Below, piece by piece: positions 20,201 through 40,258 of a DNA stretch of 64,000 bases (position 1 is the stretch's first letter; the number at the start of each line of letters is the position of its first letter). The translations under genes and the position numbers were made by a program. Source of the DNA: a virus; the IMG/VR virus record IMGVR_UViG_3300006916_000044, positions 27,371 to 91,370 of that record; one strand, 5' to 3'. The notes under the pieces were generated by a model. The model was not told where the DNA came from. It saw only the letters and a program-made list of their open reading frames with translations, and did not search any database.

Positions 20201-20680
20201 AATTATGCTGAATACACAATCATAGAAGAAGGTCCTCAAGGGTCTAAAGATCAAAATCCTAATGGATTTTTATTTGGTGATAGACCATCTGAACAACAAA
20301 TAAATAAATTTGAGGAAGATAAAAGAGATGCTTTTGCTATTGATATGGAAGGTGCAGAGTTATTAGATGATATTGATGTAGAAGAACCAGTGGATGACGT
20401 AGAGGATATTGATTATGGTGATCCAGAAGATGTTGATATTGAAACTGATGACGATGTTAACCCAGCAGATGTTTTAATGGCTTTACAATCTACACAAGAT
20501 GATATTGTAAATGAATTAAAGTTAAGTAATGATGCATTAGTTGAATCATTTTATGATAGCTTAACACCAGAAGAGCAAGAAAAACTTGGATCTAAAGATG
20601 AAGTAATGAAACCTTATTTATCATATCCAATAGATCCTAATGAATATATAGAAAACCTTAAAAAATGTTATCTTAAATAA
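5234..20680 (+). CDS. Giant virion-packaged RNA polymerase polyprotein (crAss-like two-barrel RNAP) with zincin protease and NADAR-like domain, 5148 aa
   Basis: YGIRIPSQ...SGADFDIDKIY (DFDID at 16886-16900); DGQ and RQIKNLI motifs upstream; HEAFH zincin (11738-11752) with downstream EEFMADEF; Gly/Ala-rich hydrophobic N-terminal region. Confidence 0.9.
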   Translation: MAEDISNLNINFNPQVNNQPTEPKTVSTEDVNEGIIESPNFSIKTPTGKFTPTDIPAVDVDFNAIRNELFIPNSGEPIRTSIDPTVIKNAEVLANTLNYNPVVMDYPYNMDPNSALFKLDKPQDDSLANTILNFEDVTTPSVADPVSLQPLKFDKKATNYDRYNAPGFKHLFNKIGFHPYVDNETVYNANSTWWDENARMRGQWGRIFSTGFMSTYDAIGDAFAGNYLTGDRDGAEVFEDAMRIANSSKSGIGAFTNNLMLNSGYTFGILANIAVEELALAGLEAVTLGGATPIVASRTAYNIVRLGKAADNVLDVGKNTANTVKLLDKLKDANSARDYWRAGGRWALNIFTPQTYRAIKDVSTAREGAKALSLMAKTAKTAGGFYRDARSVNLAIAESKLEGGLVQNKLYNDLYHDYVAKYGERPTGTALEEINDKAAEAAFTTLAWNFPVIFFSNQFVLGTAFRGFRGVSSILSKSAGSLGNRVMRKSAKRLAKETTEGAAKEPFKLLSKNRFKRIFERGIYGNLSQAGASLLRYSSANLAEGFQEIAQEAIAVGAEDYYKNLYNDPAMGGLDAQMASIYSGISSQMSGQGFEVFMSGFLMGGLVQGPQKLVFNGLPNLYTRFSSPEDFAKQKENEETYIKEAVNTLNKMYADPMMYFDANKMNAMFQKEASQDMFDSTFDGDIRSFMDKKAALVFNHLYTAAELGKLNDFASLFEDMLKLDDAMLAEAMPDQTAEDIKSGKTRERIQDMITKADDMRKAYDKLNEEIINPFDPSTFKKGTRDYNEEAIKYAAFDHAKKMAMFARSQFENATVRIASMYSELSTDPIIKKMAANDIDVLTDLQALISEINLLKDEIELATAETTTTEEVVDEKTGETIIKETTAKPELSADEQIALEQKTKKLIALQNVFNVLTDPANVKEREVFSDAELEKIEDLTERAKEKTSRDNRLKLIDKLREDILSTGVRDKSQEIKEVIVNAFSNSNLMNSLGEFDIANRDKFKTVLEEYLNVLAEQLGDTIQSDKIDQYVDAILDSKSLTQRQQILSRAVRTILAPENLDKLAERIEPRFKRMFLDNKNKVEARLRKYLDVTKTNIWLNELSGMGVYPDHTELIQYLENNGPIPQTYYTEEGLLTEESAQWEKANYVISAQENLTKKETPQETAQSEDSADIEDNIDYEENFLQEDTEDVEGVDVEIPSNQGDLYLKGKWIKYVETQSANNKKYLEFSDWVKSKLSKQDRLQAAAIEDIYQQVYSPLLLKNPKLGSFYTWLGTQVDNEKIQDILTFRNVSLYSLLPETKSSTIKVANEDVIDKETGKKVKVYYHTDEKGNRIDNEAFLTKKEAVETKKKKVNEKKKKKPNEFTYGKFNGVDNPKLAKGTLLIKNNVLYVVKSTDTMIADKGNLYIRELSKESSKDNNNNIYLTVEQANDYEIASNKDINYVKNTSKLKIEEATKVNPTYDRSITNRAEQIEAGVNKQQNLLRNLTSDVIGGLKLRISLGPNQSNINIPFEDKEAFQFGTQNENPKIKKNAQLLSVEIYDANGSYGYFQGPETLLLADAQGNPMSPFQLTENNLAEYFDIPKNMSTADALNYVQLSYAEAYKIYDTFKPLLSTQSLVEVNLSDFPELMVTLSEGSLTRSKSNPLITFDSLDTMFVGDDTSVTVDGEKPFFIMDYSRRYTRPKNKKEKMKVQGVPITNIDQSSKFFNAMMAEVDAMEENYDVLNRMGKYIAYVKLPNGKGAFVGLTAPVYSPENFNTLLTEIQEKASDLLANNVNADGTVKSKTAAKTINEKIQNEIYLAAEPGIYVELSLANDGSLRVKYTNMNETRNSKKRTAQGFISNEELMTFKDVQEVINKLNAFIQPIYPKGFKLDSIKTSIQKGETDIAIFGTLETQFTPEIKNNFKLQLRVNPNVISIDQVLRNAFNTNIPESTETIDNSTPVVEPTAEEKEDIILNDYENVDANYLLEIVRKSQQGKELTDFEQSVLDNTPAEMIAGLSIQVQNESTTDISNAEVLLDQNYQGISFKAEEDLKTFVDRYYESRYQQIKTSQPELTDSDIIDIVNAEMKDIETNANNPLHSGYLTLKRIQEDAEGKAFKITENFDGYDIEDINTFTDWVRDNINTDVISLSVDNLQNNMINGQMIAGQFLIHTHNLGLSGEISVGTNNPFKYHEAFHAVFRMFLTETEIKRYLKSAKKDVLAKLRREGKSLTDELASFRKSHGIYAKLSRKELEERYLEEFMADEFEAFKMKQKTNASSETKSLFQKILDFIKELLGFPTYKLNRLYRDINNGKYKRAGVQENRFTTAASSTPSVAYKSLTLGTKKIKTVTNTGEKFKTIINFMPSNDQHIIVSSAANLFIMRKNNAKGDVNTAEMLDGVINDIIENYNSERQFYKDKGFMWYKDNMLKIRNYYDSLTRQKNDLKELVRLRLDEVSNAILLNQEELDQEEADLGDITVDQWDKTSEMIGGFESAPKLIRELFATVSIDNQDMFGNKIIGENKNEPIRVGVNYSKVYDSILKAVANEPSAKKRMKKLWVWSQGSNVETRAVVVEMFKQLGLLKAAQDGTLFDPAQPFPSLESETGIRSTLYNMINNQFENYTVPYLIQLVDKNTGVVQIFEANKADDAHNTLVQWAESFNRKYSEIRIVGSKENKAARDAINRLSGFLNMPSIPEKMDIINESMVISDLIFDTTGMKFDSNYILFSLYNRLIDLNIEIPESQKLLFDMNQFADPISAEELSEIVQALNSGENLFLDNQELDTEDVDEATDDTQQYYEGGVKGRLRKISLNNAYFDETVGASTFINEEGNRIYGHQRPTFHLVELARMTTEENYVENRIAEDPFLEDNFLLTDEKFKSMQEKGQIKIMRMSGQKVGVANLTAEGIVKENKGYNKANRQGTKYGSFTPQQFIVTLVNNYTAGYNRVNPDKSLKGSYIDPVTKEPVDFAISPNLIRVIEASNTGDFAMLPVHKMIEFDADGTVNLTDQGYKAFENIIKRDAKAIQKELDPETETQDDIIGGNTNSKGQRTNSGRLFELSHNGKKLLSPLKTRIRNVRTYKNPGLGEDVQKALRSGKQSVHLLPLDKTDDVGFTEGAEGLIDVTVVESQPISLLMKNEGLINIENLSSDQVEKLIDDFGPYITTEKQNKKQHAFTLFQGTDAEQVYYTYGFQVAEFFRGKVSLVKISFTDPVSEKSDVKIQTDKTGQETIDILEVDSTPAEIFEQLINDGASFEEAFKAVDGKQIIEKRLFDEANEFIALLNDFKAIGKISPDIRSGLGIIEDSGSGTIVNDIDIELTEEMMELYNLEFDDLKYNLTQIFLNDYINTIAVNDALLGDQRLSLKNAIDAIKRAKMQNAAGSNVYSDIIDPALGIEQTTEDIDMLLYKDSLYEKEFENIRSEDKQLDSDPGERGDGQMLITQKANRHFLHGLGELTPQVAAVLDKIEAGKEVEINEEFFGTLTAESYKQMNAIMNSQKLVYGDGKVYLKMSAFVLTPLLTSRMDENGNFTIPIPGRERLHNLRVKLEKWEQDNNAIAIAVPASASKMMKSNMLGNTETFNNSSISEDNITKLNAKYMRKQMVVPSNKIEIVDPRQIKNLITSEQDLNAKVIWDGVEFSVGDVVDLYHQAQNNKLAVNWFAKRNLVFNFDEILNDYLNPQTAQKININLNAFLKFAIAGLTSSQAKSDMLSYFEMNEDGTGEPKFNLNNQLTRKKFQQLFFTFLGKGTISARQPGISAALVSDDGMLFPKKVKRVDENGVPLEWEVIRQAKWEQLETQGVAAKLSNIGSLSGLPEGLQVGDYFFDRLRSDVMMYNEDGTESGVVYTESVMPPHFKSILENLPADAVIPDVLAMAYGIRIPSQDKHSAVNIKFVDFLPVYYGSSAMFARELVELSGADFDIDKIYMQIKSFFVDKGKFVEFGKAKTEKEKYNHYLTWALNQAKQKGTPIRESIDIYLTSNPDLEFNLNEWSNMTPEEINILNESEIIARIGMENIGLPVSEEQYNAYKEKYKEREPYSDANDNKILDYKFILQGNPGMIKPRNGRELGVAQEPANLKPLTDSNAAEVLGAENAGVWDYIKANLPQLAEIVSEEDIDIDNLRGKLLAFKANKEGAKNIGSSVSPNLVINIAKEFGVSVRTLKDKNGRDIIPALTIDGIQYRDFVDYTIDPETGKQDNQAYRTQYVISALITAMTDNAKERLADKLGLNKTALAMVTMMTGMGVDIKTSILLMNQPVIRENFFKAINKEDPTDPGIRKLLERKAIGIIEFMKNNNIKTPKVAITRALLEEKANNPYEVYDLSTLDVEDINEEVRFALAEELLTIKEFLVVYDQQETLRDVTTLLNLQKTFGEDLIDAERTQQAAENLGFLMSDKEWASSAKNPNTIPFDFRPVFMSKYNTKPSLHVDYYTIFRESYDYLFPKLFLEASQDFKYLKTLMLDNMVNMMEKKDQEELTNNITTYLNTLAYMNSYVNVSENEQEGSGKQTTQDTLNNALIYNGDHYGNPDNQNLHITEVFKRLIANKKSYNYFLDDFLHLRTALNEDNYTGIDKIVANNFTKLSDSDVQNIQNSFLDLYSDPNTHIDSVSLIHYLLVKDGFNKNNRGTFIDLIPVELKKQILNSIDAVQTLFNSNKQTDAAFNRVFGLTKQELANYLVFNYLQSTSAQYHVLNVDVDKKGKLGNTPVTEIKTEEIIDVEIRPNVITILGYEPKGSTIVDNDTESSALSMTAPKQFKYKNKTYFSVDHAYQVNKTGTFNQAADKDYRKKAKQDKIGGYTRKTKGRENLNLLTLLVKYAFQTNLNKNIGGNSLASYGDILTDATDFVTVDMKEDLSVAYIKGLKQAQSQIVKVKNNKGEEIYKNKTNIQLDKKKQVDAAKEPFVIDLDKGVATIKMYAGLPTFFNDKVKTVKGQFSKNQNSDDVKSILRDNLKTLGRKGIRSQYVNIRYGNQPNQFVKKTQLYLPLVMRKTLSDGKTVLLLLNKYQQDGKYQSTSDLNQLLEEGQTQVVGNYAEYTIIEEGPQGSKDQNPNGFLFGDRPSEQQINKFEEDKRDAFAIDMEGAELLDDIDVEEPVDDVEDIDYGDPEDVDIETDDDVNPADVLMALQSTQDDIVNELKLSNDALVESFYDSLTPEEQEKLGSKDEVMKPYLSYPIDPNEYIENLKKCYLK

Positions 20681-28879: not shown

Positions 28880-29188
28880 ATGGATTCTCAACAAGATATA
28901 ATAGTAATGGGGCTAAGAATTGATAATATGGAAAAAAAATTAGATGAAATTGATAAAAAATTAGATTCTTTAACTATCAAATTATTAGATCCAGATAATG
29001 GTTTTGTTACCAGGGTAAATAAGAATACATCCTTTAGAGATAAAATGGGTGAGTTTTTACCGTATTATGAGGATACTATTTCAGAAATGGAATCTTTAAA
29101 GAAATGGAAAAACAATGTTACTAAAGCACTTTGGGTAATTTTTACTGCAGTTATTGGTTGCATAGTTAAACTAATGTTCTTTGCATAA
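28880..29188 (+). CDS. Coiled-coil protein with C-terminal TM helix (holin/XhlA-like architecture)
   Basis: IDNMEKKLDEIDKKLD coiled coil; ALWVIFTAVIGCIVKLMF TM. Confidence 0.55.
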   Translation: MDSQQDIIVMGLRIDNMEKKLDEIDKKLDSLTIKLLDPDNGFVTRVNKNTSFRDKMGEFLPYYEDTISEMESLKKWKNNVTKALWVIFTAVIGCIVKLMFFA

Positions 29189-29760
29189 TGGCACGTTCTA
29201 ACACAGGAAATAAAGGATTTAATCAACAGTTAGTTACTGTTACACCAAACACGTGGACAGATTTATTACCACGTGATACTAATGAAAGACGTATAAACCA
29301 AAACTTAAGAGGACTTACAATAAACAAATTAATAATTCAAAATACAGGTACAGATGATATAACTGTATCAGTTAAATTTATATCTAGAGATCCACAAAGC
29401 CCGCATGATGAATATGAAGGAGAAGTAATTTCTGACAAAATTATATCAGGTTCACATAGAAGAGGTAGCAACGGTACTACTACAGCAAATAATTTAATAA
29501 ATTTTAGTAAGCCTATGGGCCGTGGTGTAGAAGGTTATGGTTTTGGTGGTCATGATGCAAACACAATTGCTGATTGGAATGGTTTAACATATACAGGAGT
29601 ATTAGAAATGGATTTTGTAAATTATCAATTGCAATTTCCAAACATGCAGTCTGTTCAATTTAAAGCTAATGTAGGAAGTGGTTTTATTGCAACTTTAATT
29701 ATGAATGACAACCAAATAAAAATGAAACAAACAGTAGGTGGTAATGGTATAAAAATGTAA
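29188..29760 (+). CDS. Hypothetical beta-rich protein, probably structural
   Basis: TAATG-coupled ORF; LIIQNTGTDDITV jelly-roll-like pattern. Confidence 0.5.
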   Translation: MARSNTGNKGFNQQLVTVTPNTWTDLLPRDTNERRINQNLRGLTINKLIIQNTGTDDITVSVKFISRDPQSPHDEYEGEVISDKIISGSHRRGSNGTTTANNLINFSKPMGRGVEGYGFGGHDANTIADWNGLTYTGVLEMDFVNYQLQFPNMQSVQFKANVGSGFIATLIMNDNQIKMKQTVGGNGIKM

Positions 29761-29764
29761 TAAA

Positions 29765-30046
29765 ATGGCAAAAGAATTAAATGAAGATACTAGTTTTAAA
29801 ATAAGTCTAAAAACATTAGGAGGAATAGCGGTTTTAATTTTTACTCTTGTTGGTATGTGGTTTACTTTACAAGCTGATATTGCTGAAGCAAAAGAGTTAC
29901 CAGCTCCACCAGATCCAGAAGTTACACGTATGGAATTTGACATGAAAGATCAAATGATACGTAGCACAATTATGACTACACAAGAAGATGTTAAAGAAAT
30001 AAAAGAGTCTCTTGAAAAAATAGAAGATAAATTATATAATAGATAA
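29765..30046 (+). CDS. Single-TM membrane protein with Pro linker and coiled coil
   Basis: LGGIAVLIFTLVGMWFTL TM, PAPPDP, EDVKEIKESLEKIEDKL. Confidence 0.6.
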   Translation: MAKELNEDTSFKISLKTLGGIAVLIFTLVGMWFTLQADIAEAKELPAPPDPEVTRMEFDMKDQMIRSTIMTTQEDVKEIKESLEKIEDKLYNR

Positions 30047-30047
30047 A

Positions 30048-30173
30048 ATGAGAAAGAAACCAACAATACAATTTAAAGGTAACAAACGAACCAAAAGACC
30101 TGGGGTACACAGCAAAAATGCTAGTAAAGGTCAAAATGGTTATAAAAACAAATACCGTGGGCAAGGTAGATAA
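30048..30173 (+). CDS. Small basic protein (41 aa, ...RPGVHSK...KYRGQGR)
   Basis: ATG 1 nt after the upstream stop; K/R-rich; not in the ORF track. Confidence 0.6.
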   Translation: MRKKPTIQFKGNKRTKRPGVHSKNASKGQNGYKNKYRGQGR

Positions 30174-30525
30174 TAATATAAATACTGTATGGAAAATTTT
30201 TCTAACATACTTACTGTTGTTATTTTGCTTGCTTGTCTCATCGGATGCTTATTCTCAGATAACAGTGAAACATTTTAATGCAGGATGGAATAGTGCTAAT
30301 GATGTAGAATGGTTCTCCAAATTAAAAGAGTGTGATAAAAGTTCTCTTTTAATAGATAAAGATGACAATCAAAAAAAATATCAAATAGCTGTTGTACCAA
30401 CTATTATAATATTTAAAGATGATGAAGAGGTAAAACGTTTTCAAGCAGATCTAAGTTTTAAAATGGTTGCCACTAGAAAAGAAATACAGGATTTTATAGA
30501 TGAATTAATAATGAGTGATTTTTAA
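30118..30525 (+). CDS. Exported thioredoxin-fold protein lacking CxxC (start uncertain)
   Basis: Signal peptide ...SDAYS|Q; HFNAGWNSAND where Trx has F.A.WCxxC; KYQIAVVPTIIIFKDDEEVKRF cis-Pro region. Confidence 0.7.
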   Translation: MLVKVKMVIKTNTVGKVDNNINTVWKIFLTYLLLLFCLLVSSDAYSQITVKHFNAGWNSANDVEWFSKLKECDKSSLLIDKDDNQKKYQIAVVPTIIIFKDDEEVKRFQADLSFKMVATRKEIQDFIDELIMSDF

Positions 30526-30526
30526 A

Positions 30527-32989
30527 ATGAAAAAATTTTTATTTATAGTATTTGCAATGATTGCACAAATAGCTGTGTCTCAAAACTCATATGTAGTTAT
30601 AGAAGCACAGTATGATTCATGGGGACCTGCAGAATCTCAATTTTATATTACAGATGCTCAAGGTGATACCGTATATCATCATCAACCTACAGTGCAAAGT
30701 GAATATTTATTAGATACTTTATTTATAAATGCACAACCTCTTACTGCTATTCTTTTAGATCAATATGGAGACGGATGGCAAGATACAGGCATGCAAGGTT
30801 ATTTTAGAACATGGAATAACTGTCAAGATACAATAGTAGAATTTATATCTTCACCTACAAATTACTTTGCTACAGAAATAATAAACTTTAATTTGGGTCC
30901 ATGTCAACCAAACGGACCTCCACCTCCACCATGTTTACCTGCAGTAGTTATAATTAATTTAGATCAGTATCAATCAGAAACGTCTTGGGAGATTACTGAT
31001 ACTTTAGGTTTTGTAGTAGCATCAGGTAGTGGTTATGGTTCACAACCAGATTATGGAACTGTTGTTGTTCCTGTATGTTTACCACAAACGGTATTAAATT
31101 TTACAATATTTGATTCTTATGGGGACGGTTTAAATGGTTCACTTTGGCAAGGTCAAGATGGATCTTATTTTGTTAAACAATGTGGTGATACATTAGTATA
31201 TGGTACAGATCCAGCTTTTGGAACAGATAGTACACACGTATTTGCTATTGATACATGTCCTCCTATATATGGATGTACGGATGATGATTATGTAGAGTGG
31301 AACCCGTTTGCAGATACTGATGATGGTAGCTGTCAAACATTAAAAGTTTTTGGATGTATTGACTCAACAGCATTTAACTATGATTCTACTGCAAATACAA
31401 TGGACCTTGTTCCACAATGTGAATTTACGTTAGTGTTGCATGATCTTATGGGTAATGGTTGGGTAGGATCACACTTATCTTTAGAATTACCTGACACTTC
31501 TTTCTCTTTTACGCATACTGGAGGTTTTAATGATGAATATCAATTTACTATAGATGCACCAGATCCTGCCGTGTTTAGATTTCATATATCTCCACAGGCA
31601 ACACTAACTACTATAGAATGTGGGTTTACGCTTATGAATCCAGAAGGTGATACATTAGTTAGTGTTCAACCTCCATTTATACAACCTTTGTTTCCATATT
31701 CTTTTATTACTAATTGTGGTAATACATGTATAGAAAAAGTTTTTGGTTGTACGGATAGTCTTGCTTTAAATTATTATGATGAAGCTAATACAGATGACAG
31801 TTCTTGTTATTATGTGGCAGGGTGTATGAATCCGCTGTATTTAGAATATGATACAACTGCTGATTTTGATGATGGATCATGTGTAACTTTAGTTGTTGCA
31901 GGATGTATGGATTCAACAGCACTTAATTATGATCCGTTAGCAAACGTAGAAATACCAGGGTCATGTATAGCAATAGTAGAAGGATGTATGAATCCTTTAG
32001 CATTTAATTATAATCCTAATGCTAACGTTGATGACTCAACATGTATACCTGTTATAGATGGTTGTACAAATCCTATAGCACTTAATTATGATTCAACCGC
32101 TAATACAGACGATGGCTCTTGTGTATTACCAATACCAGGGTGTACAGATCCTAATGCACTTAACTATAATCCACAAGCAAATGTAGATGACTCAAGTTGT
32201 ATAGATATAGTTTATGGTTGTACAGATGCATCAATGTTTAACTTTGATCCTTTAGCCAATGTAGATAATGGATCATGTATACCTTTTGTTTTTGGTTGTA
32301 CAGATTCTACTATGTTTAATTTTAACCCATTAGCAAATACAGATGACAATAATTGCATTCCTTTTATTTATGGTTGTACTGATCCAGTTGCGCTCAACTA
32401 CAATCCGTCAGCTAACACAGAAGATTTTAGCTGTATTGATTATATTTACGGTTGTACTGATAGCACTGCCATTAACTATGATCCGTTGGCTAATACTGAC
32501 AATGGTTCTTGCATTGAAGCAATCCCAGGTTGCATGGATCAGACGGCATGGAATTACGAGTCTTACTATAATGTTAATGATTCTCTTTCTTGCCTGTACG
32601 ATGCTGGTTGTATCACTGGCCCTGGAAATCCTTATTGGTTAAATGATGGATGTTATGCTTGGGTAATTGATGTAGATGATTATTGTTGTGAGAATGCATG
32701 GGACGCATCATGTCAAACAATGTATGATTATTGTGAGTTAGGATGGCCAACAAATTTAAATGATATGTCAGTTATAGGAATTGTAGTTTATCCAAATCCA
32801 ACATCCGGTATATTAAGAATTGAAACTAGATTAAATATAGAAGTTCTAGTAATTGATATGCAAGGTAAAATAATTATAGAAGAAGAAAACATAAATACAA
32901 TAGATCTATCAACTTATTCAAAAGGAATTTATAACTTAAAGATAACAACTGATGGAAAATCATTTATTAATAAAATTATAAAACATTAA
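30527..32989 (+). CDS. Secreted Cys/Asp-repeat protein with T9SS C-terminal sorting domain
   Basis: Sec signal MKKFLF...AVS|Q; three D.(Y/M)G(D/N)G(W/L) domains; 13 GCxD...NY...AN.DD.SC repeats; C-terminal VYPNP...IDLSTYSKGIYNLKI...KIIK. Confidence 0.85.
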   Translation: MKKFLFIVFAMIAQIAVSQNSYVVIEAQYDSWGPAESQFYITDAQGDTVYHHQPTVQSEYLLDTLFINAQPLTAILLDQYGDGWQDTGMQGYFRTWNNCQDTIVEFISSPTNYFATEIINFNLGPCQPNGPPPPPCLPAVVIINLDQYQSETSWEITDTLGFVVASGSGYGSQPDYGTVVVPVCLPQTVLNFTIFDSYGDGLNGSLWQGQDGSYFVKQCGDTLVYGTDPAFGTDSTHVFAIDTCPPIYGCTDDDYVEWNPFADTDDGSCQTLKVFGCIDSTAFNYDSTANTMDLVPQCEFTLVLHDLMGNGWVGSHLSLELPDTSFSFTHTGGFNDEYQFTIDAPDPAVFRFHISPQATLTTIECGFTLMNPEGDTLVSVQPPFIQPLFPYSFITNCGNTCIEKVFGCTDSLALNYYDEANTDDSSCYYVAGCMNPLYLEYDTTADFDDGSCVTLVVAGCMDSTALNYDPLANVEIPGSCIAIVEGCMNPLAFNYNPNANVDDSTCIPVIDGCTNPIALNYDSTANTDDGSCVLPIPGCTDPNALNYNPQANVDDSSCIDIVYGCTDASMFNFDPLANVDNGSCIPFVFGCTDSTMFNFNPLANTDDNNCIPFIYGCTDPVALNYNPSANTEDFSCIDYIYGCTDSTAINYDPLANTDNGSCIEAIPGCMDQTAWNYESYYNVNDSLSCLYDAGCITGPGNPYWLNDGCYAWVIDVDDYCCENAWDASCQTMYDYCELGWPTNLNDMSVIGIVVYPNPTSGILRIETRLNIEVLVIDMQGKIIIEEENINTIDLSTYSKGIYNLKITTDGKSFINKIIKH
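31745..32593 (+). repeat. Tandem array of 11 ~26-aa (~78-nt) GCTDxxAxNYxxxANxDDxSC repeats
   Basis: Counted directly in the translation; two more copies near 31270-31400. Confidence 0.9.
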
Positions 32990-32992
32990 ATT

Positions 32993-33352
32993 ATGAAGAC
33001 TAACAACGGAAGAGATAACATCTTAAACGATATTAACTCTGCAACAACAGAAGCTATATCACCAAGTGGTACTGTATATATAGGAGCAACAGGAGAAAAA
33101 TATGAAGCTATTAATGGAACTTTTTTTGCATTTACAGCTCTTGAAAATGCTACAATAGATGCAAGCAGGTCTACAACAAACATACTTACTAAAGGTGCTA
33201 GTACAGGAGATCCTCTTATTAAAAATGTTACAGCTGACATGACTATACCTGCTGGTGTAACAATATATGGAAACTTTTTAAGTATTGAATTAACTGCTGG
33301 TAAAGGTATAGCTTATTATAAAGATATGACAACAGCTAAAGCAAGTTTCTAA
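32993..33352 (+). CDS. Hypothetical beta-rich protein, probably virion structural
   Basis: TIPAGVTIYGNFLSIELTAGKGIAY pattern; Thr/Gly-rich. Confidence 0.5.
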   Translation: MKTNNGRDNILNDINSATTEAISPSGTVYIGATGEKYEAINGTFFAFTALENATIDASRSTTNILTKGASTGDPLIKNVTADMTIPAGVTIYGNFLSIELTAGKGIAYYKDMTTAKASF

Positions 33353-33353
33353 A

Positions 33354-34148
33354 ATGAATATTCTAGGTTTAGGTTTAGGTATACACAAAGGTTCTACTGG
33401 TACTGCTAGTAGCGTATTAACTCCTGCAGAAATTGCAGGTGGTGCTGATATTTGGTTTGATGCTACTCAAAGAGAAAATGTTACAGAAAATGGTGGTAGA
33501 GTTACTAGTGTAAGAAATTCTGGAAATCAAAGCAGCCAACCTAATCCTGGTGTAGTAGATTGGGTTTTAAACTATATAGGTACAGAAGCAGCTTATGAGC
33601 AGACTGGTGGACAAAACAATTTACCATTTTTAAAATTTACTGGTAGTGAGTCTTTTCAAATAGAACAGACTGATAATCTTGGCACTGCTGCAAATGTGAA
33701 TTATGGTACAGAATATACAATTATGATAATTCAAGATGTTGGAGGAACAGGAACAACAAGAGGAGTAACAGGTGCAAGAAACCCTAATGGATTTGTGTGT
33801 AGGTTTAATAATTCTGATGTTTTAATACAGTCAGTATATAATAGTTCTTCATTAGCAAGTGATTCAATTCTTCCAACAGGAGGTCAAGGTTTTGGTATTA
33901 TTACATGTAATACAAGTGATACAAATAATACAAATAGTGTTAGGTTTAATGCACAGTCTAATGCTCCTGCTACTGTAAGTGGAACTCCTGTAAGTACAAG
34001 TAATATTTTTGTAGGTAAAGGAAATAATACTACTCAATTTTATGAAGGTAATATATATGAGTGGGCATTATTTAAGTCATCTTTATCTAGTGCTGATTTA
34101 GATTTATTAGATGCTTATGTTCAAGACAAATATAATTTTACATATTAA
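33354..34148 (+). CDS. LamG/concanavalin-like tail or spike protein
   Basis: N-terminal LGLGLGI, IWFDA, FYEGNIYEWALFKSSLS...YVQDKY. Confidence 0.65.
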   Translation: MNILGLGLGIHKGSTGTASSVLTPAEIAGGADIWFDATQRENVTENGGRVTSVRNSGNQSSQPNPGVVDWVLNYIGTEAAYEQTGGQNNLPFLKFTGSESFQIEQTDNLGTAANVNYGTEYTIMIIQDVGGTGTTRGVTGARNPNGFVCRFNNSDVLIQSVYNSSSLASDSILPTGGQGFGIITCNTSDTNNTNSVRFNAQSNAPATVSGTPVSTSNIFVGKGNNTTQFYEGNIYEWALFKSSLSSADLDLLDAYVQDKYNFTY

Positions 34149-34149
34149 G

Positions 34150-35199
34150 ATGAAATATTTATTATTCATATTAGCTTTTTTTAGTTGCATGTCAGCAAAC
34201 GGTCAGGTATTTAAAGATTTTTTTAAGTACTCTACTTTATATTCATCAGTTAACGGTGGTAATTCAATATCAGACCAGACAGTATACGATGTTGCTACAG
34301 GTACTTTATTAAATGATGTTATAGAAACACCATACAATTATACGTTAACGTTTGGGATTAGAAAGATTCAGAGATTTCAATACGAACCACAGTTACCATT
34401 TAAAGATGGTACAGAGACATCATTTAACGATGCAGCTACTATAGGGAGAGTTAAGAAAGGTTTTGAGTATTTATTTGAGGTTGATTATGCGAGGCAACAG
34501 GGAATAGAGTTTATAAATCAAAATCACTTTTTACGATACAACACAACAAGATGGTTAGCACGTGTAGAATATTTACAAGACGGTTTTGCAGATATAAAAT
34601 ATTTTCAAGGTTCACAAAGATTAAGGATTAATTCAAAGGGTAAACTCTCTTTTAACGTGGGGGCATGTCAGAGAATTTCAGAGCCCTATGGATTCAATCC
34701 GCTTGAACAATGGATGCTACCTAATGGATCATTACACTATACACAATTGGCCCTAGATCAAGGTTACAATGTAATCTTTGACGGAGAAGGCGGTACAGAA
34801 TATACTGATCCATCAGGCGCTACCGTTGCAACAAGTAAAGAAGTGTGGGAAGCAGTAGTGGTTCCAGAAATGCTAGTTGACTATGTTGCTGCTGAGAGAA
34901 ACAAATTACCTGCTCAATGGGTTCATTCTCTTATTATAGGTTTTGATTATTATAAGTATACTAAAGATATATGGATTCATGCTTGGGGTAATGTACTACC
35001 TTATCACTATAATGACGGAGGCACATATTCATATCATAACTTTAATGATGGAGAACAATGGTATGACTATTCTGGCGGTATGATTTTTGGTTATAAAGTA
35101 ACAAGAAATCTTGGTGCGTTTGTAGAAGGTAAGTATAATAAATACTGGGACAGAGAATGGTATGATTTCAAATTTGGTATTAACTATAAAGTGTTTTAA
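34150..35199 (+). CDS. Putative outer-membrane beta-barrel protein
   Basis: Signal peptide ...SANG|Q; alternating aromatic beta strands; C-terminal FKFGINYKVF BAM-type beta signal. Confidence 0.75.
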   Translation: MKYLLFILAFFSCMSANGQVFKDFFKYSTLYSSVNGGNSISDQTVYDVATGTLLNDVIETPYNYTLTFGIRKIQRFQYEPQLPFKDGTETSFNDAATIGRVKKGFEYLFEVDYARQQGIEFINQNHFLRYNTTRWLARVEYLQDGFADIKYFQGSQRLRINSKGKLSFNVGACQRISEPYGFNPLEQWMLPNGSLHYTQLALDQGYNVIFDGEGGTEYTDPSGATVATSKEVWEAVVVPEMLVDYVAAERNKLPAQWVHSLIIGFDYYKYTKDIWIHAWGNVLPYHYNDGGTYSYHNFNDGEQWYDYSGGMIFGYKVTRNLGAFVEGKYNKYWDREWYDFKFGINYKVF

Positions 35200-35201
35200 T
35201 T

Positions 35202-35339
35202 ATGGCTAAGAAGAAAAAAACAAAGAGTAAAAAAGATGCATGTTATCACAAAGCTAAAGCTAAGTACAGAGTATTTCCTAGTGCTTATGCTAGCGGATAT
35301 ATTGCTAAATGTAGAAAACGTAGAGGTAAGATAAAGTAA
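35202..35339 (+). CDS. Small basic protein (45 aa, KDACYHKAK..Y.VFPSAYASG..KCRK)
   Basis: TAATG-coupled to the next gene; motif recalled from aquatic phage small proteins; not in the ORF track. Confidence 0.7.
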   Translation: MAKKKKTKSKKDACYHKAKAKYRVFPSAYASGYIAKCRKRRGKIK

Positions 35340-35611
35340 TGGCAGTTAGAAAAACAAAAGCAGGAGCTAATCTTAAACGTTGGTTTAAAGAGAAGTGGAA
35401 AGACGAAAAGGGTAATCCTTGTGGTTCTTCTAAAAATAAGAAGACTAAAAAGTGTAGACCTACTAAACGTGTTAGTAAGGAAACACCTAGAACATGGGGC
35501 TCTTTATCTAAATCACAAAAAGCTAAAGCTGTTGCTGAGAAAAAGAAAGTGGGGATGGGCCGTAGAACTAGTTCTATCAGAAAAGGTAAGAAAAAATCTA
35601 AAAAGAAGTAA
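35339..35611 (+). CDS. Small basic protein (LKRWFKEKW...CRPTKRVS; DUF5872-like)
   Basis: Very K/R-rich; family name from recall. Confidence 0.65.
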   Translation: MAVRKTKAGANLKRWFKEKWKDEKGNPCGSSKNKKTKKCRPTKRVSKETPRTWGSLSKSQKAKAVAEKKKVGMGRRTSSIRKGKKKSKKK

Positions 35612-35613
35612 TT

Positions 35614-35877
35614 ATGGCAAGTAAAAAGAAAGGTGCAATGAAAGGCTGTTCTATTAAGAATGGTTGCAAAAGTAAAAAAGGTGGACTTACTGCTAAGGGC
35701 CGTAGAATGATTAATAAAAAAACTGGCTCTAAACTTAAAGCTCCACAACCAGGAGGAGGTAAACGTAAGAAATCATACTGCGCTAGATCAGCCGGTCAGA
35801 TGAAAATGCATAACGTTAACTGTAGTAAGACTCCAGATAAAAGAATTTGTAAAGCAAGAAGACGTTGGAAATGTTAA
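35614..35877 (+). CDS. Small basic protein (GGLTAKGR...KSYCAR...RRWKC; DUF6321-like)
   Basis: K/R-rich with conserved-looking Cys; family name from recall. Confidence 0.65.
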   Translation: MASKKKGAMKGCSIKNGCKSKKGGLTAKGRRMINKKTGSKLKAPQPGGGKRKKSYCARSAGQMKMHNVNCSKTPDKRICKARRRWKC

Positions 35878-35878
35878 G

Positions 35879-36064
35879 ATGGCAAAGAAAAAATTAGACA
35901 TAAAAAAAGCTATAAAAAAGCCTGGCTCACTAACAGCTGCAGCCAAGCGTAAAGGTATGACTATAGCACAATACTGTAAGAACCCGCCTAGTAAAAAGGC
36001 CGGTTATAGATGTAGATTTGCTAAGACACTTAAAAAGATTAGTAAAAAACGTAAAAAGAAATAA
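35879..36064 (+). CDS. Small basic protein (AIKKPGSL...FAKTLKK)
   Basis: Very K-rich; tightly packed in the operon. Confidence 0.65.
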   Translation: MAKKKLDIKKAIKKPGSLTAAAKRKGMTIAQYCKNPPSKKAGYRCRFAKTLKKISKKRKKK

Positions 36065-36066
36065 TA

Positions 36067-36516
36067 ATGCCTGTAACAACAAACCCTGTATATGCTTTTA
36101 GTACTAGATTAAGTACAACTAGAACATGGCTCCCTATTGATGGGATTGGTGCGTCCGGAACTCCAACAACTGGAGAGGATAGTGCAAAGTTTGCTACTCT
36201 TACTGTTACTAACTCAGGCTATTTAGCTAATGATAGAGCTACTCCAATAATCTTTCATATTGCAATCTGGAAGAGATCTTTGCTTGCAGCTAATAATACT
36301 ACTTTAATGGGGGCAGCAAATCAAATGGTATTTATTAGAACTAAAGTAAGTCTAACAGGTAATAATGATGTGTTTGAATTAAAAGACTTATATATAGATA
36401 AGTTTGTTCCTAATGATTCAACACCTGAAGATGAACCTTTAGTTTGTATTTGGATAGAAGCTACATCAGGATCTGGTGAAGCAAACGCATCATTAGATGT
36501 ATGTTTAACAAGATAG
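36067..36516 (+). CDS. Hypothetical beta-rich protein, possibly structural
   Basis: 149-aa ORF in the operon. Confidence 0.5.
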   Translation: MPVTTNPVYAFSTRLSTTRTWLPIDGIGASGTPTTGEDSAKFATLTVTNSGYLANDRATPIIFHIAIWKRSLLAANNTTLMGAANQMVFIRTKVSLTGNNDVFELKDLYIDKFVPNDSTPEDEPLVCIWIEATSGSGEANASLDVCLTR

Positions 36517-36518
36517 TT

Positions 36519-36734
36519 ATGTGGAAATTATTTAAAGATGAAAATGATATAAATGAAAAAGCCATAGTTGGCTTTGCTTCTTTTGTGCTAATGGTAATAT
36601 TTGCAATATGTGATTTAATTACTGGATGGTGCGGAATGGAACTTGTAATAAATGAAGTTATATATAATAGCTTTGTAATAGTAACTCTAGGGAGTTTTGG
36701 AATTAGCTCACTGGAAAAAATTAAAAAATCTTAA
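36519..36734 (+). CDS. Small two-TM membrane protein (holin-like)
   Basis: Two hydrophobic helices, LGSFGISSLEKIKK tail; ATG 36519 preferred. Confidence 0.6.
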   Translation: MWKLFKDENDINEKAIVGFASFVLMVIFAICDLITGWCGMELVINEVIYNSFVIVTLGSFGISSLEKIKKS

Positions 36735-36738
36735 GGTT

Positions 36739-36831
36739 ATGAAAAAATTTATTTGTATTTTATTATGTAAGATAACGTTTAACAAAGTATGTTTAGGCTG
36801 GTGTGAATCAGGCTGCTGCTTAAAAAAATAA
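36739..36831 (+). CDS. Cys-rich microprotein MKKFICILLCKITFNKVCLGWCESGCCLKK
   Basis: 30-aa ORF fitting the operon with 4-nt gaps; 6 Cys. Confidence 0.5.
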   Translation: MKKFICILLCKITFNKVCLGWCESGCCLKK

Positions 36832-36835
36832 TATT

Positions 36836-36997
36836 ATGCCAGGATATAAACATAGATATAAAAGTGGTGGCAGTAATAAAAGAGGAAACATATTACCTCA
36901 AGCTAGAAAAGGTGGACAACAAAGTTTGTTAAGTAAATTAACAACAAGAGCTCCTAAAAAAACTACAAAGGGATGTGGATGTGGTGGTCAAGTATAG
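36836..36997 (+). CDS. Small basic protein with YKSGG/ARKGG motifs and a GCGCGG end (53 aa)
   Basis: ATG-TAG ORF filling the gap; not in the ORF track. Confidence 0.55.
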   Translation: MPGYKHRYKSGGSNKRGNILPQARKGGQQSLLSKLTTRAPKKTTKGCGCGGQV

Positions 36998-37011
36998 TAA
37001 AAAAATTTAGT

Positions 37012-37488
37012 ATGAAACCAAGTAGAAAGCCTAATAAGGCAAGAAGAAGAAGAGCAGAAAAATGGTTTGCTGCTCATGGAATTAATCCTAACAGTCCAGA
37101 TAGTAATGGTAATGCAAATGTATTAGATGTAAGACCAACACTAACTTGGAAAGAAGATATGGATGGTGTAACTAGTTATCCATGTGAAATTAATGTAGAA
37201 GGATTTTTATTTTATGCACACGTAACAGTGTCCTTTACAGATAGTAAAGGTAACACACATGAATACGAAGGTGGCTCAGGTGGAATTGGAGTAGGAGATC
37301 TTACATGCGCTGGAGTAATTTACTTTGGTGATGAAGATGTGCTACTAAAAGCAACAACGTTTGGTGTAGCATTTGGTGCTGAAGACGGTGGTGTTTGTCA
37401 AGTAACTTGGGGGACCAGTGGAAACGCAACTGCAGCTGGGATTGGTGAAGGCTTAGGTGCCTTTGGTGGCAGCGGTAGTTGGAAATAA
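37012..37488 (+). CDS. VapA/VapB (Rhodococcus equi virulence-associated protein)-like beta-barrel protein
   Basis: Y....V...LFY..V.V, EYEGGSGGIGVG, GVIYFGD...L, GIGEGLGAFGGSGSWK run colinear with the Vap core ending GVGGGSGSW. Confidence 0.65.
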   Translation: MKPSRKPNKARRRRAEKWFAAHGINPNSPDSNGNANVLDVRPTLTWKEDMDGVTSYPCEINVEGFLFYAHVTVSFTDSKGNTHEYEGGSGGIGVGDLTCAGVIYFGDEDVLLKATTFGVAFGAEDGGVCQVTWGTSGNATAAGIGEGLGAFGGSGSWK

Positions 37489-37495
37489 TTATAAT

Positions 37496-37888
37496 ATGAG
37501 TATACTAGGAACTATATTTAGTGGAGGAGCTAAAGAACTTGTTGAAGGTGTAGGTGGTGTTATTGATGGACTACATACATCTGAAGAAGAAAAGCTAGCC
37601 GCTAAACAAAAAATGAAAGAACTTGTAGCTAATTATGAGGTCCAAATGGAAAAAGAAATAACTTCCAGATGGCAAGCAGATATGAAGTCTGACTCATGGC
37701 TATCTAAAAATATTAGACCATTAGTATTAGCATTCTTAGTTATAAGCACTGTGCTATTGATATTTATTGATGCAGGTGTTATTAACTTTGTTGTTGAAGC
37801 TAAATGGACTGATCTATTACAATTAGTATTAATCACAGTGATTGGTGCCTACTTTGGTGGCCGTTCACTAGAAAAAACAAAGAAATAA
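37496..37888 (+). CDS. 3TM-type holin (GTA_holin_3TM-like)
   Basis: TSEEEK, DMKSDSWLSKNIRP, GAYFGGRSLEK. Confidence 0.85.
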   Translation: MSILGTIFSGGAKELVEGVGGVIDGLHTSEEEKLAAKQKMKELVANYEVQMEKEITSRWQADMKSDSWLSKNIRPLVLAFLVISTVLLIFIDAGVINFVVEAKWTDLLQLVLITVIGAYFGGRSLEKTKK

Positions 37889-39225: not shown

Positions 39226-39422
39226 TCTATATCTAATAAAGGTTCTAAGTAGTTGATTGCCCAATTATATGCAGCAGCCGGGTAGGTAAATAGTTTTCTT
39301 TTTCTTTTTACCCACCTGGCTGACTTGCGTTCATATATTACCATTTCCCATTTTTTTCCTACTGGATAACAACACGGCCAATACCCCTTCTTGGTAAGGA
39401 ATTTAATTTCTTCTTTATACAT
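39222..39422 (-). CDS. Hypothetical protein
   Basis: 66-aa ORF coupled to the SPL-like gene; convergent with the + arm. Confidence 0.5.
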   Translation of the reverse strand: MYKEEIKFLTKKGYWPCCYPVGKKWEMVIYERKSARWVKRKRKLFTYPAAAYNWAINYLEPLLDID

Positions 39423-40258
39423 CAGAATATATATCTTATTGTTGCTATGTCAAAATAGTTTGCATAGATTTGTTTAAACATCTCTAGAAGCTTATGCTTC
39501 TTTGCTATTGGATAGCGCATCACTCCTGTCCCATTTTTAACTTCATCAGAATATTTCATAATCTCACGGGCCTCATCACTAGCTTTAATCATTTGATTAA
39601 CATGATTAGTCAATGCAATAACTTCACATTTATTTTCACCTGCTACCTCTTTAACACGTTTAAACAACTGGTCATAATGCTTAGACCACCCCGGCATAAA
39701 TATAAGTGGAGAAAAATTTAAATGTACTTCCCATCCTAAATCTTTAAGTCTATTAATGTCTTGTATTCTAGATTCAATTTTTTGCATCTTAGGTTCTAAT
39801 ACATCTGAATAAGCTTGAGGCATGAGACTTACCCTTACTCTAGGTGGTTTATTAAAATGATTAACATTAAGTTTAAGAAGACCCGGATACTTAGTAGCCA
39901 TAGTACTATTAAGTTGTGGGTGATCATCAAAGCGCTTAAGGTAATCATGTAGTGGTTCAGGCATATGCTTTTGCATTAGAACTAAATCTGAGTTGCATGC
40001 AATGTCTACCATTGTATATACTGGATCTTGCTGGTTAGGAACTTTAGTGTAGCCCGCTTCCCAAGCAAGAACAGAGTTAAATATATCATTAACATTAGTA
40101 TTAACAAATACTCTATGTCCATTAAATCTAGACATATAACAATATGTGTCTACACAGCCACCAAAACATCCATAGATTATATTTGGAGCTATGCAGTCAC
40201 TACTATTGTTATTTGTTTTTGTTACTAATGTTTTTGTTACTTGTTTTTTGATGGCCAT
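39422..40258 (-). CDS. splB: Spore photoproduct lyase-like radical SAM enzyme
   Basis: GCFGGCVDTYCYM Fe-S motif, DIACNSD (cf. SPL ..CTSD H-donor Cys), ATK, RVSLMP, LNFSPLI, RY near the C-terminus. Confidence 0.8.
   Translation of the reverse strand: MAIKKQVTKTLVTKTNNNSSDCIAPNIIYGCFGGCVDTYCYMSRFNGHRVFVNTNVNDIFNSVLAWEAGYTKVPNQQDPVYTMVDIACNSDLVLMQKHMPEPLHDYLKRFDDHPQLNSTMATKYPGLLKLNVNHFNKPPRVRVSLMPQAYSDVLEPKMQKIESRIQDINRLKDLGWEVHLNFSPLIFMPGWSKHYDQLFKRVKEVAGENKCEVIALTNHVNQMIKASDEAREIMKYSDEVKNGTGVMRYPIAKKHKLLEMFKQIYANYFDIATIRYIF

What the first reader, a model, noticed from the sequence alone, without database searches (positions are those of the whole stretch)
29765..35199. Phage-encoded Bacteroidota cell-envelope module: IM anchor, periplasmic Trx fold, T9SS cargo and OM beta-barrel
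Seen: within one + strand phage operon are a single-TM coiled-coil protein (29765), a signal-peptide thioredoxin fold (30118), a T9SS-CTD repeat protein (30527) and a protein with a BAM-type C-terminus (34150). All three exported proteins have a predicted cleavage directly before Gln (AYS|Q, AVS|Q, ANG|Q). Established: Gln at +1 is the Bacteroidota 'Q-rule', and CTDs route cargo through T9SS to the cell surface. Inference: these are not virion parts. They could form one component per envelope compartment, remodelling the infected cell surface (superinfection exclusion, adhesion/aggregation, nutrient or metal uptake, grazer defence). This is my best candidate for an undescribed system.
Basis: partly seen in the sequence, partly recalled or inferred. 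Interest (0 to 1): 0.88.

Follow-up and report, generated by a model that had tools for sequence, protein, structure and literature searches.

The report
Phage envelope trio beside lysis genes
An uncultured marine phage of flavobacteria-like hosts encodes an outer-membrane barrel, an inner-membrane coiled-coil protein and a catalytically dead periplasmic thioredoxin that travel together in hundreds of phage genomes next to the lysis genes, so the trio may be an undescribed way of breaching the host outer membrane; the secreted (T9SS) protein beside it is only a clade-specific neighbour.

Summary
All four genes exist as described. The T9SS C-terminal domain passes Pfam and TIGRFAM cut-offs. The thioredoxin fold lacks CxxC. 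The 349-aa protein models as a 12-stranded outer-membrane barrel. All three signal peptides end before Gln, and this holds in relatives.

The conserved unit has three genes, not four. Barrel, TM coiled-coil protein and Cys-less thioredoxin stay contiguous in three divergent phage clades (about 200 viral contigs, genomes of 44-167 kb). Gene order is permuted between clades.

The T9SS cargo accompanies the trio only in the window's clade and in 1 of 10 complete genomes elsewhere.

The trio's constant neighbours are lysis genes:
- a holin within 1 kb in 58 of 61 loci of one clade
- a small 2-TM protein within 1 kb in 46 of 48 loci of another
- Amidase_2, DUF5675 or endolysin-like genes next to it in some lineages

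The barrel family is phage-only, unnamed and absent from GenBank phage records.

Best reading (about 0.45): a trans-envelope, spanin-like lysis device with an OMP in place of the lipoprotein. Surface remodelling or superinfection exclusion remains open.

This scan reached a similar reading before on other DNA (e1-5911284).

The parts
28880..29188 (+). XhlA-like small protein (N-terminal coiled coil, C-terminal TM). First gene of the + strand block.
   Evidence: PHROG phrog_1193 'hemolysin' at E 2.8e-5 and a weak Pfam XhlA hit. XhlA belongs to lysis cassettes of Bacillus prophages (own knowledge).
29765..30046 (+). TMcc: 93-aa bitopic inner-membrane protein. It has an N-terminal TM, the conserved juxtamembrane motif GMWFxLQADIxEAKELP, and a periplasmic heptad helix. 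Member 1 of the trio.
   Evidence: It keeps 54-56% identity across clades in which the barrel keeps only 32-37%. It is always adjacent to the thioredoxin-like gene.
30118..30525 (+). Exported thioredoxin-fold protein without CxxC (FNAGWNSAN). The cis-Pro loop VPT is kept and the protein ends in a C-terminal Phe. Member 2 of the trio.
   Evidence: The profile matches PDB thioredoxins at E 5.9e-6 with CGPC gapped. Weak Pfam and TIGR thioredoxin hits.
30527..32989 (+). T9SS type-A cargo. It has a signal peptide, three small beta-sandwich domains, 13 Cys repeats (GCxDxxAxNY..DDGSC), a Cys-rich knot and a Por_Secre_tail CTD. It is a clade-specific neighbour of the trio.
   Evidence: CTD. (N-terminal model, generic CBM/C2/Ig matches only, Z below 7). 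2943 homologues, about half with a precomputed PF18962 hit.
32993..34148 (+). Two genes without signal peptides (119 aa and 264 aa). The second has a weak hit to a virion structural PHROG. They lie between cargo and barrel and are probably not part of the system.
   Evidence: Homologues sit elsewhere relative to the trio in other lineages.
34150..35199 (+). Outer-membrane beta-barrel (349 aa, about 12 strands). It has a long, highly conserved predicted periplasmic turn (residues 73-103) and a 78-residue external insertion. Member 3 of the trio.
   Evidence: AF2 model and fold searches. 13 of 31 residues in the 73-103 turn are invariant. 14 of 42 homologues carry a lipobox-like N-terminus. The family is phage-only.
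36501..36734 (+). 77-aa 2-TM membrane protein. Candidate holin or antiholin that tracks the trio.
   Evidence: Homologues lie within 1 kb of the trio in 46 of 48 loci of the P0146 clade (median 4 nt). In L009 the homologue sits inside the trio. No family hit.
37457..37888 (+). Holin
   Evidence: PHROG phrog_3427 holin at E 5.6e-32. Weak Pfam GTA_holin_3TM hit at E 3.7e-4.

Best explanation
The core feature is a conserved three-gene envelope cassette belonging to the lysis module of phages that infect Bacteroidota. It encodes a bitopic inner-membrane coiled-coil protein, a redox-dead periplasmic thioredoxin-fold protein and an outer-membrane beta-barrel.

Proposed mechanism (inferred):
- The three proteins are made late and build a link from inner to outer membrane.
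- The barrel plays the part that the lipoprotein o-spanin plays in lambda.
- The TM coiled-coil protein plays the i-spanin part.
- The thioredoxin fold acts as a periplasmic adaptor or latch. Its former active-site groove and cis-Pro loop could hold the invariant ELPxP segment of the TM protein or the conserved periplasmic turn of the barrel.
- Once holin and lysin have removed the peptidoglycan, the complex disrupts or fuses the outer membrane and releases virions.

Shown: gene conservation, predicted localisation, linkage to lysis genes and restriction of the family to phages.

Inferred: complex formation and outer-membrane disruption.

The neighbouring T9SS cargo is a separate, clade-specific, non-enzymatic adhesin-like protein exported through the host T9SS.
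For: 1. The trio is contiguous in three divergent clades with permuted order: 33 of 40, 77 of 80 and 68 of 80 loci. Most loci that lack a member lie at contig ends.

2. Linkage to lysis genes:
- P0159 clade: holin (Pfam GTA_holin_3TM, 51.7 bits) within 1 kb in 58 of 61 loci.
- P0146 clade: 2-TM protein within 1 kb in 46 of 48 loci. DUF5675, a C82-like candidate lysin (preprint 10.64898/2026.04.11.717860), lies 13 nt away in 6 loci. In L067 an endolysin-like gene (phrog_33083) starts 340 nt after the thioredoxin-like gene.
- Window clade: in the L035 lineage Amidase_2 is the next ORF after the thioredoxin-like gene. DUF5675 and the holin lie 1-3 genes downstream elsewhere.

3. In the 91-kb record, every predicted membrane or exported ORF lies in window 28880-37888, a block that ends at the holin.

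4. TMcc has i-spanin-like architecture. The barrel is an OMP, with lipobox variants in 14 of 42 homologues.

5. The trio behaves as core genes. There are 3449 barrel homologues, all unnamed. The only hits in cellular genome collections are three contigs in MAGs assigned to unrelated taxa, read here as mis-binned phage contigs.

6. Kongari et al. list Bacteroides and Croceibacter phages among spanin-less phages and note that 'an OMP could act as an o-spanin' (PMC6139136).
Against: - No experiment and no expression data bear on function.
- Known o-spanins are small lipoproteins, not BAM-dependent barrels.
- The periplasmic part of TMcc is only about 57 residues and has no Cys. Intermolecular disulfides are proposed as near-universal in two-component spanins.
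- TMcc is unusually conserved (54-56% across clades), whereas spanins are extremely diverse. This suggests a conserved host target instead.
- In the window itself the trio is split: TMcc and the thioredoxin-like gene lie 4.1 kb from the barrel, which lies 2.3 kb from the holin.
- No endolysin was recognised in this clade's complete genomes with four Pfam families.
- Genes next to lysis cassettes can be unrelated morons, as with lambda bor (own knowledge).
Confidence: 0.45

Rival explanations
1. Envelope remodelling or superinfection exclusion. The barrel masks or replaces a surface receptor, the thioredoxin fold neutralises a periplasmic step of incoming phages, and the TM protein blocks DNA passage through the inner membrane. 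The T9SS cargo coats the surface.
For: - There is one component per envelope compartment.
- The cargo shares its Cys repeat with a 1467-aa ORF without a signal peptide, probably a virion fibre, in the same genome. It also shares it with a cyanophage 'virion structural protein'. It could therefore compete for the same ligand.
- High TMcc conservation fits a conserved host target.
- Precedents from own knowledge: T4 Imm and Sp, HK97 gp15, T5 Llp.
Against: - Exclusion genes are usually accessory, variable and expressed early. The trio is core in three clades of very different phages (44-167 kb) and sits with late and lysis genes.
- Predicted external loops of the barrel are not hypervariable.
- The cargo is missing from most trio-bearing genomes.
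- No PADLOC hit.
Confidence: 0.25
2. A helper set for the T9SS cargo. The barrel is a dedicated outer-membrane anchor or shuttle, analogous to PorP/SprF or PorV, for the phage's CTD protein. The thioredoxin fold chaperones the Cys-rich cargo.
For: - In the window clade the cargo lies within 1 kb of the trio in 23 of 29 loci, and often starts at the stop codon of the thioredoxin-like gene.
- PorP/SprF proteins have a similar size (329-351 aa).
Against: - 9 of 10 complete genomes of the other clades have the trio but no Por_Secre_tail protein.
- hhalign of the barrel profile against six PorP/SprF proteins gives probability 10.7%.
- No Pfam barrel family hit at E below 0.1.
- PorV is only a mid-list structural match (Z 8.9, against 12.6 for CymA).
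Confidence: 0.1
3. An auxiliary uptake channel. The barrel is a substrate-specific porin that raises nutrient import during infection.
For: The best structural matches are monomeric specific channels: CymA, OmpG, KdgM, NanC and Tsx. Phage OMPs next to transport genes are reported in huge phages (preprint 10.64898/2026.10.24.761521).
Against: - No transporter genes are nearby.
- The obligatory pairing with TMcc and the dead thioredoxin is left unexplained.
- The context is lysis genes.
- The fold matches are generic for barrels.
Confidence: 0.07
4. Virion components, such as fibres or decoration proteins.
For: The Cys repeat occurs in proteins annotated as virion structural. Neighbouring genes without signal peptides look structural.
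Against: All three exported proteins carry cleavable Sec signals obeying the Bacteroidota Q-rule. One is an integral OM barrel and one an IM protein. Tailed virions assemble in the cytoplasm.
Confidence: 0.03

Closest known systems
Two-component spanins (lambda Rz/Rz1 type; Kongari et al. 2018, PMC6139136)
   Same: An inner-membrane protein with an N-terminal TM and a helical periplasmic domain is encoded next to an outer-membrane partner, inside or beside the holin/lysin cassette. A trans-envelope topology is predicted.
   Different: - The OM partner is a 330-residue beta-barrel, lipidated only in some variants, not a small lipoprotein.
- A third, periplasmic thioredoxin-fold subunit is obligatory.
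- The i-spanin-like part has no Cys.
- The periplasmic domain is short.
- Sequence conservation is far higher than in spanins.
Phage-encoded T9SS cargo ('Cryophage', Bellas et al. 2020, PMC7468147)
   Same: A phage gene with a Sec signal and a type-A Por_Secre_tail CTD, presumed to use the host T9SS.
   Different: The Cryophage cargos are enzymes (endoglucanase, GH39) or a PA14-domain protein, and they are variable genes. This cargo has no recognisable catalytic domain (beta-sandwiches plus Cys repeats). It belongs to a family of about 2900 proteins.
Phage-encoded outer-membrane proteins (lambda Lom; Pfam Phage_OMP PF24653; OMPs of huge phages, preprint 10.64898/2026.10.24.761521)
   Same: A beta-barrel OMP encoded by a phage and assembled in the host outer membrane.
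   Different: - Those OMPs usually have host homologues and occur singly or with transporters.
- This family has no cellular homologue detected, does not match PF24653, occurs in 44-167 kb phages, and is locked to two partner genes.
PorP/SprF-type B CTD cargo pairs of the T9SS (own knowledge; Pfam PF11751)
   Same: An OM barrel of about 340 aa is encoded next to a T9SS substrate.
   Different: No sequence or profile relation. The cargo here has a type-A CTD. The barrel occurs mostly without any cargo.
Cys-less thioredoxin-fold periplasmic subunits such as F-plasmid TraF (own knowledge, not tested)
   Same: A periplasmic thioredoxin fold lacking CxxC serves a structural role in an envelope-spanning machine.
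   Different: No sequence relation was examined. The genetic context differs (conjugation rather than phage lysis).

Membership tests
T9SS type-A cargo (Por_Secre_tail / TIGR04183) | C-terminal sorting domain scoring above the curated HMM cut-off | tested here: met
   Pfam 51.3 bits (cut-off 27) and TIGR04183 47.1 bits (cut-off 23), at residues 758-824
T9SS type-A cargo (Por_Secre_tail / TIGR04183) | N-terminal Sec signal peptide | tested here: met
   The MKKFLF... h-region is followed by AVS|Q. The feature is conserved in homologues of all lineages. This rests on heuristics, not SignalP.
T9SS type-A cargo (Por_Secre_tail / TIGR04183) | Host possesses a T9SS and secretes the protein | not testable with these tools
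   The host is unknown. A Bacteroidota host is inferred from the Q-rule and the CTD.
Thioredoxin superfamily | Thioredoxin fold recognisable by profile, with the cis-Pro loop | tested here: met
   Profile A2 matches PDB thioredoxins at E 5.9e-6. VPT is invariant.
Thioredoxin superfamily | Redox-active CxxC motif | tested here: not met
   The CGPC position is gapped or replaced by WNxxN in all 23 aligned homologues, and in the four thioredoxin-like sequences from the other clades printed.
Two-component spanin | i-spanin: type II IM protein with an N-terminal TMD and a helical periplasmic domain | tested here: met
   TMcc has one TM at residues 17-37, and heptad hydrophobics at 56-90. The N-in topology is inferred from flanking charge.
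Two-component spanin | o-spanin: small outer-membrane lipoprotein with a lipobox | tested here: not met
   The OM partner is a 349-aa barrel with an SPase I-type signal. Only 14 of 42 homologues have a lipobox-like ...SC..PKKCCSQ N-terminus.
Two-component spanin | Genes adjacent to each other and in the lysis cassette | tested here: met
   This holds in relatives. In the window itself the trio is split, and the barrel lies 2.3 kb from the holin.
Two-component spanin | Periplasmic Cys for intermolecular disulfides | tested here: not met
   None of the 22 aligned TMcc sequences contains Cys.
Two-component spanin | Physical IM-OM complex that disrupts the outer membrane | not testable with these tools
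   This needs biochemistry and genetics.
PorP/SprF (PF11751) | Match to the family HMM or profile | tested here: not met
   No Pfam hit at E below 0.1. hhalign against six PorP/SprF proteins gives probability 10.7%.
Cyanophage Phage_OMP (PF24653) | Match to the family HMM | tested here: not met
   No match at E up to 10 in five related genomes.
Outer-membrane beta-barrel protein (generic) | Signal peptide, C-terminal aromatic beta-signal, closed antiparallel barrel | tested here: met
   The protein ends in ...NYKVF. The AF2 model has 12 strands. Z is 10-12.6 to CymA, OmpG, TamA, KdgM and NanC.

The most novel reading that the evidence does not exclude
The trio is a new class of outer-membrane-disrupting lysis machinery specific to phages of Bacteroidota. 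It would be a three-component 'OMP-spanin' in which a beta-barrel replaces the lipoprotein and a dead thioredoxin acts as periplasmic adaptor or latch. This would explain why spanins have not been found in these phages.
Probability: 0.35. Interest if true: 0.8.

Novelty: new variant of a known kind. Interest (0 to 1): 0.72.

Why it matters
How phages without recognisable spanins breach the outer membrane has been open since at least 2018. Bacteroides and Croceibacter phages are on the published spanin-less list (PMC6139136).

This is a concrete, highly conserved and very abundant candidate. The barrel family has 3449 homologues and the cargo family 2943. The trio occurs in three phage clades, and none of the proteins is named.

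If the reading holds, it would:
- give marine and possibly gut Bacteroidota phages a lysis-cassette marker
- add an OMP-based solution to the spanin problem
- provide a case of a thioredoxin fold recruited as a structural envelope subunit

Even if the lysis reading is wrong, a phage-only trio targeted to all three envelope layers is a defined and testable unknown.

Tried and rejected
- Complex prediction on barrel + TMcc + thioredoxin-like protein returned 'no answer'. It is not used either way.
- P0254 gave no viral locus.
- No RNA holder was listed among the sequencing runs, so nothing can be said on expression.
- GenBank phage records gave no match for:
  - the block as DNA, near or distant mode
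  - the barrel
  - TMcc
  - the P0146-type barrel
- Endolysin hunt: Amidase_2, Phage_lysozyme, Peptidase_M15_4 and DUF5675 were all absent from G000-G003. The window clade's lysin stays unidentified.
- Profiles of TMcc and barrel have no PDB sequence relatives.
- PADLOC gave nothing.
- The cargo N-terminal model gave only generic beta-sandwich matches (Z up to 6.9).
- ESM Atlas neighbours of the barrel are unnamed viral clusters. The named ones (autotransporter, OmpG, Phage_OMP) were leads only.
- Promoter and terminator scans were no better than shuffles.
- My first CTD HMM was too narrow: it missed the cohesin-CTD protein of L067. Pfam searches on whole genomes were used for the cargo tally instead.
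Full report
**Context**

The window is part of a 91,370-bp IMG/VR virus record that is 79% complete. G+C is about 30%. It carries these phage genes:
- ribonucleotide reductase
- family A DNA polymerase
- holin
- nuclease

Giant + strand ORFs of up to 5148 aa fill the region upstream. Other ORFs upstream of the window match PHROG 'virion structural protein' families.

Relatives encode the Pfam CrAss_Ring_2 tail ring protein. The nearest cultured phages are only distant structural matches: Cellulophaga phi4:1 and phi17:2, and F. psychrophilum FpV4, at 25-31% identity. This is an uncultured crAss-like phage, presumably of marine Flavobacteriia-like hosts.

**The observation**

All four genes are present as described.

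- The cargo carries a real type-A T9SS sorting domain (Pfam 51.3 bits, TIGR04183 47.1 bits).
- The 135-aa protein is a thioredoxin fold. A 23-sequence profile hits PDB thioredoxins at E 5.9e-6. The CGPC position is gapped, and the conserved motif FNAxWNxxN takes its place.
- The 349-aa protein has no Pfam, PHROG or NCBIfam hit. It models (pLDDT 70) as a 12-stranded barrel with generic OMP matches: CymA Z 12.6, OmpG 11.8, TamA barrel 11.6, NanC at Foldseek E 3.8e-6.
- Gln follows each predicted signal peptide. It is invariant or nearly so in homologues, including six distant barrel representatives. The Q-rule has already been noted for phage proteins (PMC10367356).
- The block is not chimeric. 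Four independent runs hold near-identical contigs at even depth, and these bridge cargo to barrel.

**Co-occurrence**

A search with the barrel found 42 viral loci. HMM and tblastn mapping shows that barrel, TMcc and the thioredoxin-like gene occur together wherever enough flank is present. The usual order is barrel-TMcc-Trx. In the window's sub-lineage the order is TMcc-Trx...barrel.

A profile search of 1.84 billion representatives gave 389 family members. Two divergent sub-families were traced to 160 more viral loci. All three genes are present in 145 of those 160.

| Clade | Genome sizes | Gene order | Loci with the full trio |
|---|---|---|---|
| P0146 | 101-167 kb | barrel-TMcc-Trx | 77 of 80 |
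| P0159 | 44-72 kb (complete) | TMcc-Trx-barrel | 68 of 80 |

TMcc keeps 54-56% identity across clades. The barrel keeps 32-37% and the thioredoxin fold 31-39%.

The only hits in prokaryote genome collections are three contigs in MAGs assigned to unrelated taxa. I read these as mis-binned phage contigs. GenBank phage records have no homologue.

**The cargo is not part of the core**

Por_Secre_tail is over its cut-off in the window record and in three of five relatives, weak in one and absent in one. In ten complete or near-complete genomes of the other two clades it occurs once, as a cohesin-CTD protein in L067.

The cargo N-terminus folds into three small beta-sandwiches with only generic matches. 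No catalytic domain was recognised.

Its Cys repeat also occurs six times in a 1467-aa ORF without a signal peptide, upstream of the window. It also occurs in a cyanophage protein annotated 'virion structural protein'.

**What travels with the trio**

- P0159 clade: a holin (GTA_holin_3TM, 51.7 bits) lies within 1 kb in 58 of 61 loci.
- P0146 clade: a conserved 70-85-aa 2-TM protein, homologous to window 36501-36734, lies within 1 kb in 46 of 48 loci (median 4 nt). DUF5675 lies 13 nt away in six loci. In L067 an endolysin-like gene follows the thioredoxin-like gene.
- Window clade: in the L035 lineage the order is cargo-barrel-TMcc-Trx-Amidase_2. In the L009, L019, L011, L027 and L042 lineages, DUF5675 and the holin lie 1-3 genes after the cargo.

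DUF5675 is reported as a C82-like candidate lysin (preprint 10.64898/2026.04.11.717860).

In the window's own record, every predicted membrane or exported ORF lies between 28880 and 37888. These are the XhlA-like protein, TMcc, the thioredoxin-like protein, the cargo, the barrel, the 2-TM protein and the holin.

**Reading**

The best-supported explanation is that the trio belongs to the lysis machinery and forms a spanin-like trans-envelope device. An OMP would serve as the outer-membrane member and the dead thioredoxin as a periplasmic adaptor.

Kongari et al. list Bacteroides and Croceibacter phages as spanin-less and explicitly allow that an OMP could act as an o-spanin.

The model places a long turn (residues 73-103) on the periplasmic side. 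It has low pLDDT yet 13 of 31 invariant residues, which makes it a candidate docking site.

Points against:
- There is no lipoprotein partner in most members.
- TMcc has no Cys.
- The periplasmic domain of TMcc is short.
- TMcc conservation is untypical of spanins.
- The arrangement in the window is split.
- No lysin was found in this clade.

I put this reading at 0.45. Superinfection exclusion or remodelling gets 0.25, a cargo helper 0.10, a porin 0.07 and a virion part 0.03.

**Comparison with the known**

Phage T9SS cargo has been reported (Cryophage). Phage OMPs have been reported. Q-rule phage proteins have been reported. I found no report of the locked trio or of its link to lysis.

It does not meet the o-spanin lipoprotein criterion. 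It is not PorP/SprF and not Phage_OMP.

The scan's earlier notes were read only after my analysis. They describe the same trio on other genomes, and one follow-up (e1-5911284) reached a similar reading. That agreement is not independent evidence.

Noticed in passing
G000:126-4529 (upstream of the window; L047:126-4529): A 1467-aa ORF without a signal peptide carries six copies of the same GCxDxxAxNY..DDGSC repeat as the T9SS cargo. It also has a weak Hoc-like PHROG hit. It may be a virion fibre sharing a ligand-binding module with the secreted protein.
   Followed up: partly
window 35202-36064: Four back-to-back, very basic, Cys-containing microproteins. Two match Pfam DUF5872 (54 bits) and DUF6321 (62 bits). 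Homologues follow the barrel directly in other clades, for example L165 and L040.
   Followed up: partly
window 36501-36734: A conserved 2-TM, 77-aa protein with no family hit. It tracks the trio closely in another clade and sits inside the trio in L009. Candidate holin or antiholin.
   Followed up: partly
L002, L006, L014, L020, L027 and other loci (barrel N-termini): About a third of the barrel homologues (14 of 42) have a lipobox-like N-terminus...(L/I)SC(A/V)xPK(K/E)CC(S)Q, inserted before the conserved Gln. This implies lipidated and non-lipidated variants of the same barrel.
   Followed up: no
G000-G003 whole records: No Amidase_2, Phage_lysozyme, Peptidase_M15_4 or DUF5675 was found in the window's record (79% complete) or in the three complete 115-123 kb relatives. 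The endolysin of this clade is unrecognised.
   Followed up: partly
L040:667-1344: In one relative, a 225-aa ORF lies between the thioredoxin-like gene and the cargo. By eye it resembles a glycosyltransferase. This was not tested with HMMs.
   Followed up: no
L067:4504-7972 and 11140-11571: In a 167-kb phage the trio sits in a larger island of exported proteins. These are a cohesin + T9SS CTD protein, three more proteins with signal peptides followed by Gln, and a 143-aa protein with an N-terminal signal and a C-terminal TM, a topology like that of unimolecular spanins.
   Followed up: partly
window 29763-30083 and 35541-35861: In metagenome contigs laid on the block, depth spikes up to 16-fold over TMcc and one basic microprotein in run X1. 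This fits recruitment of contigs from co-occurring related phages by these highly conserved genes.
   Followed up: no
window 39422-40258 (- strand): A spore photoproduct lyase-like radical SAM protein (Pfam SPL, 64 bits) in a phage.
   Followed up: no
window 5234-20680: A single 5148-aa ORF, flanked by ORFs of 1121 and 1846 aa. None of the flanking ORFs has a PHROG hit. Other giant ORFs lie upstream in the record.
   Followed up: no
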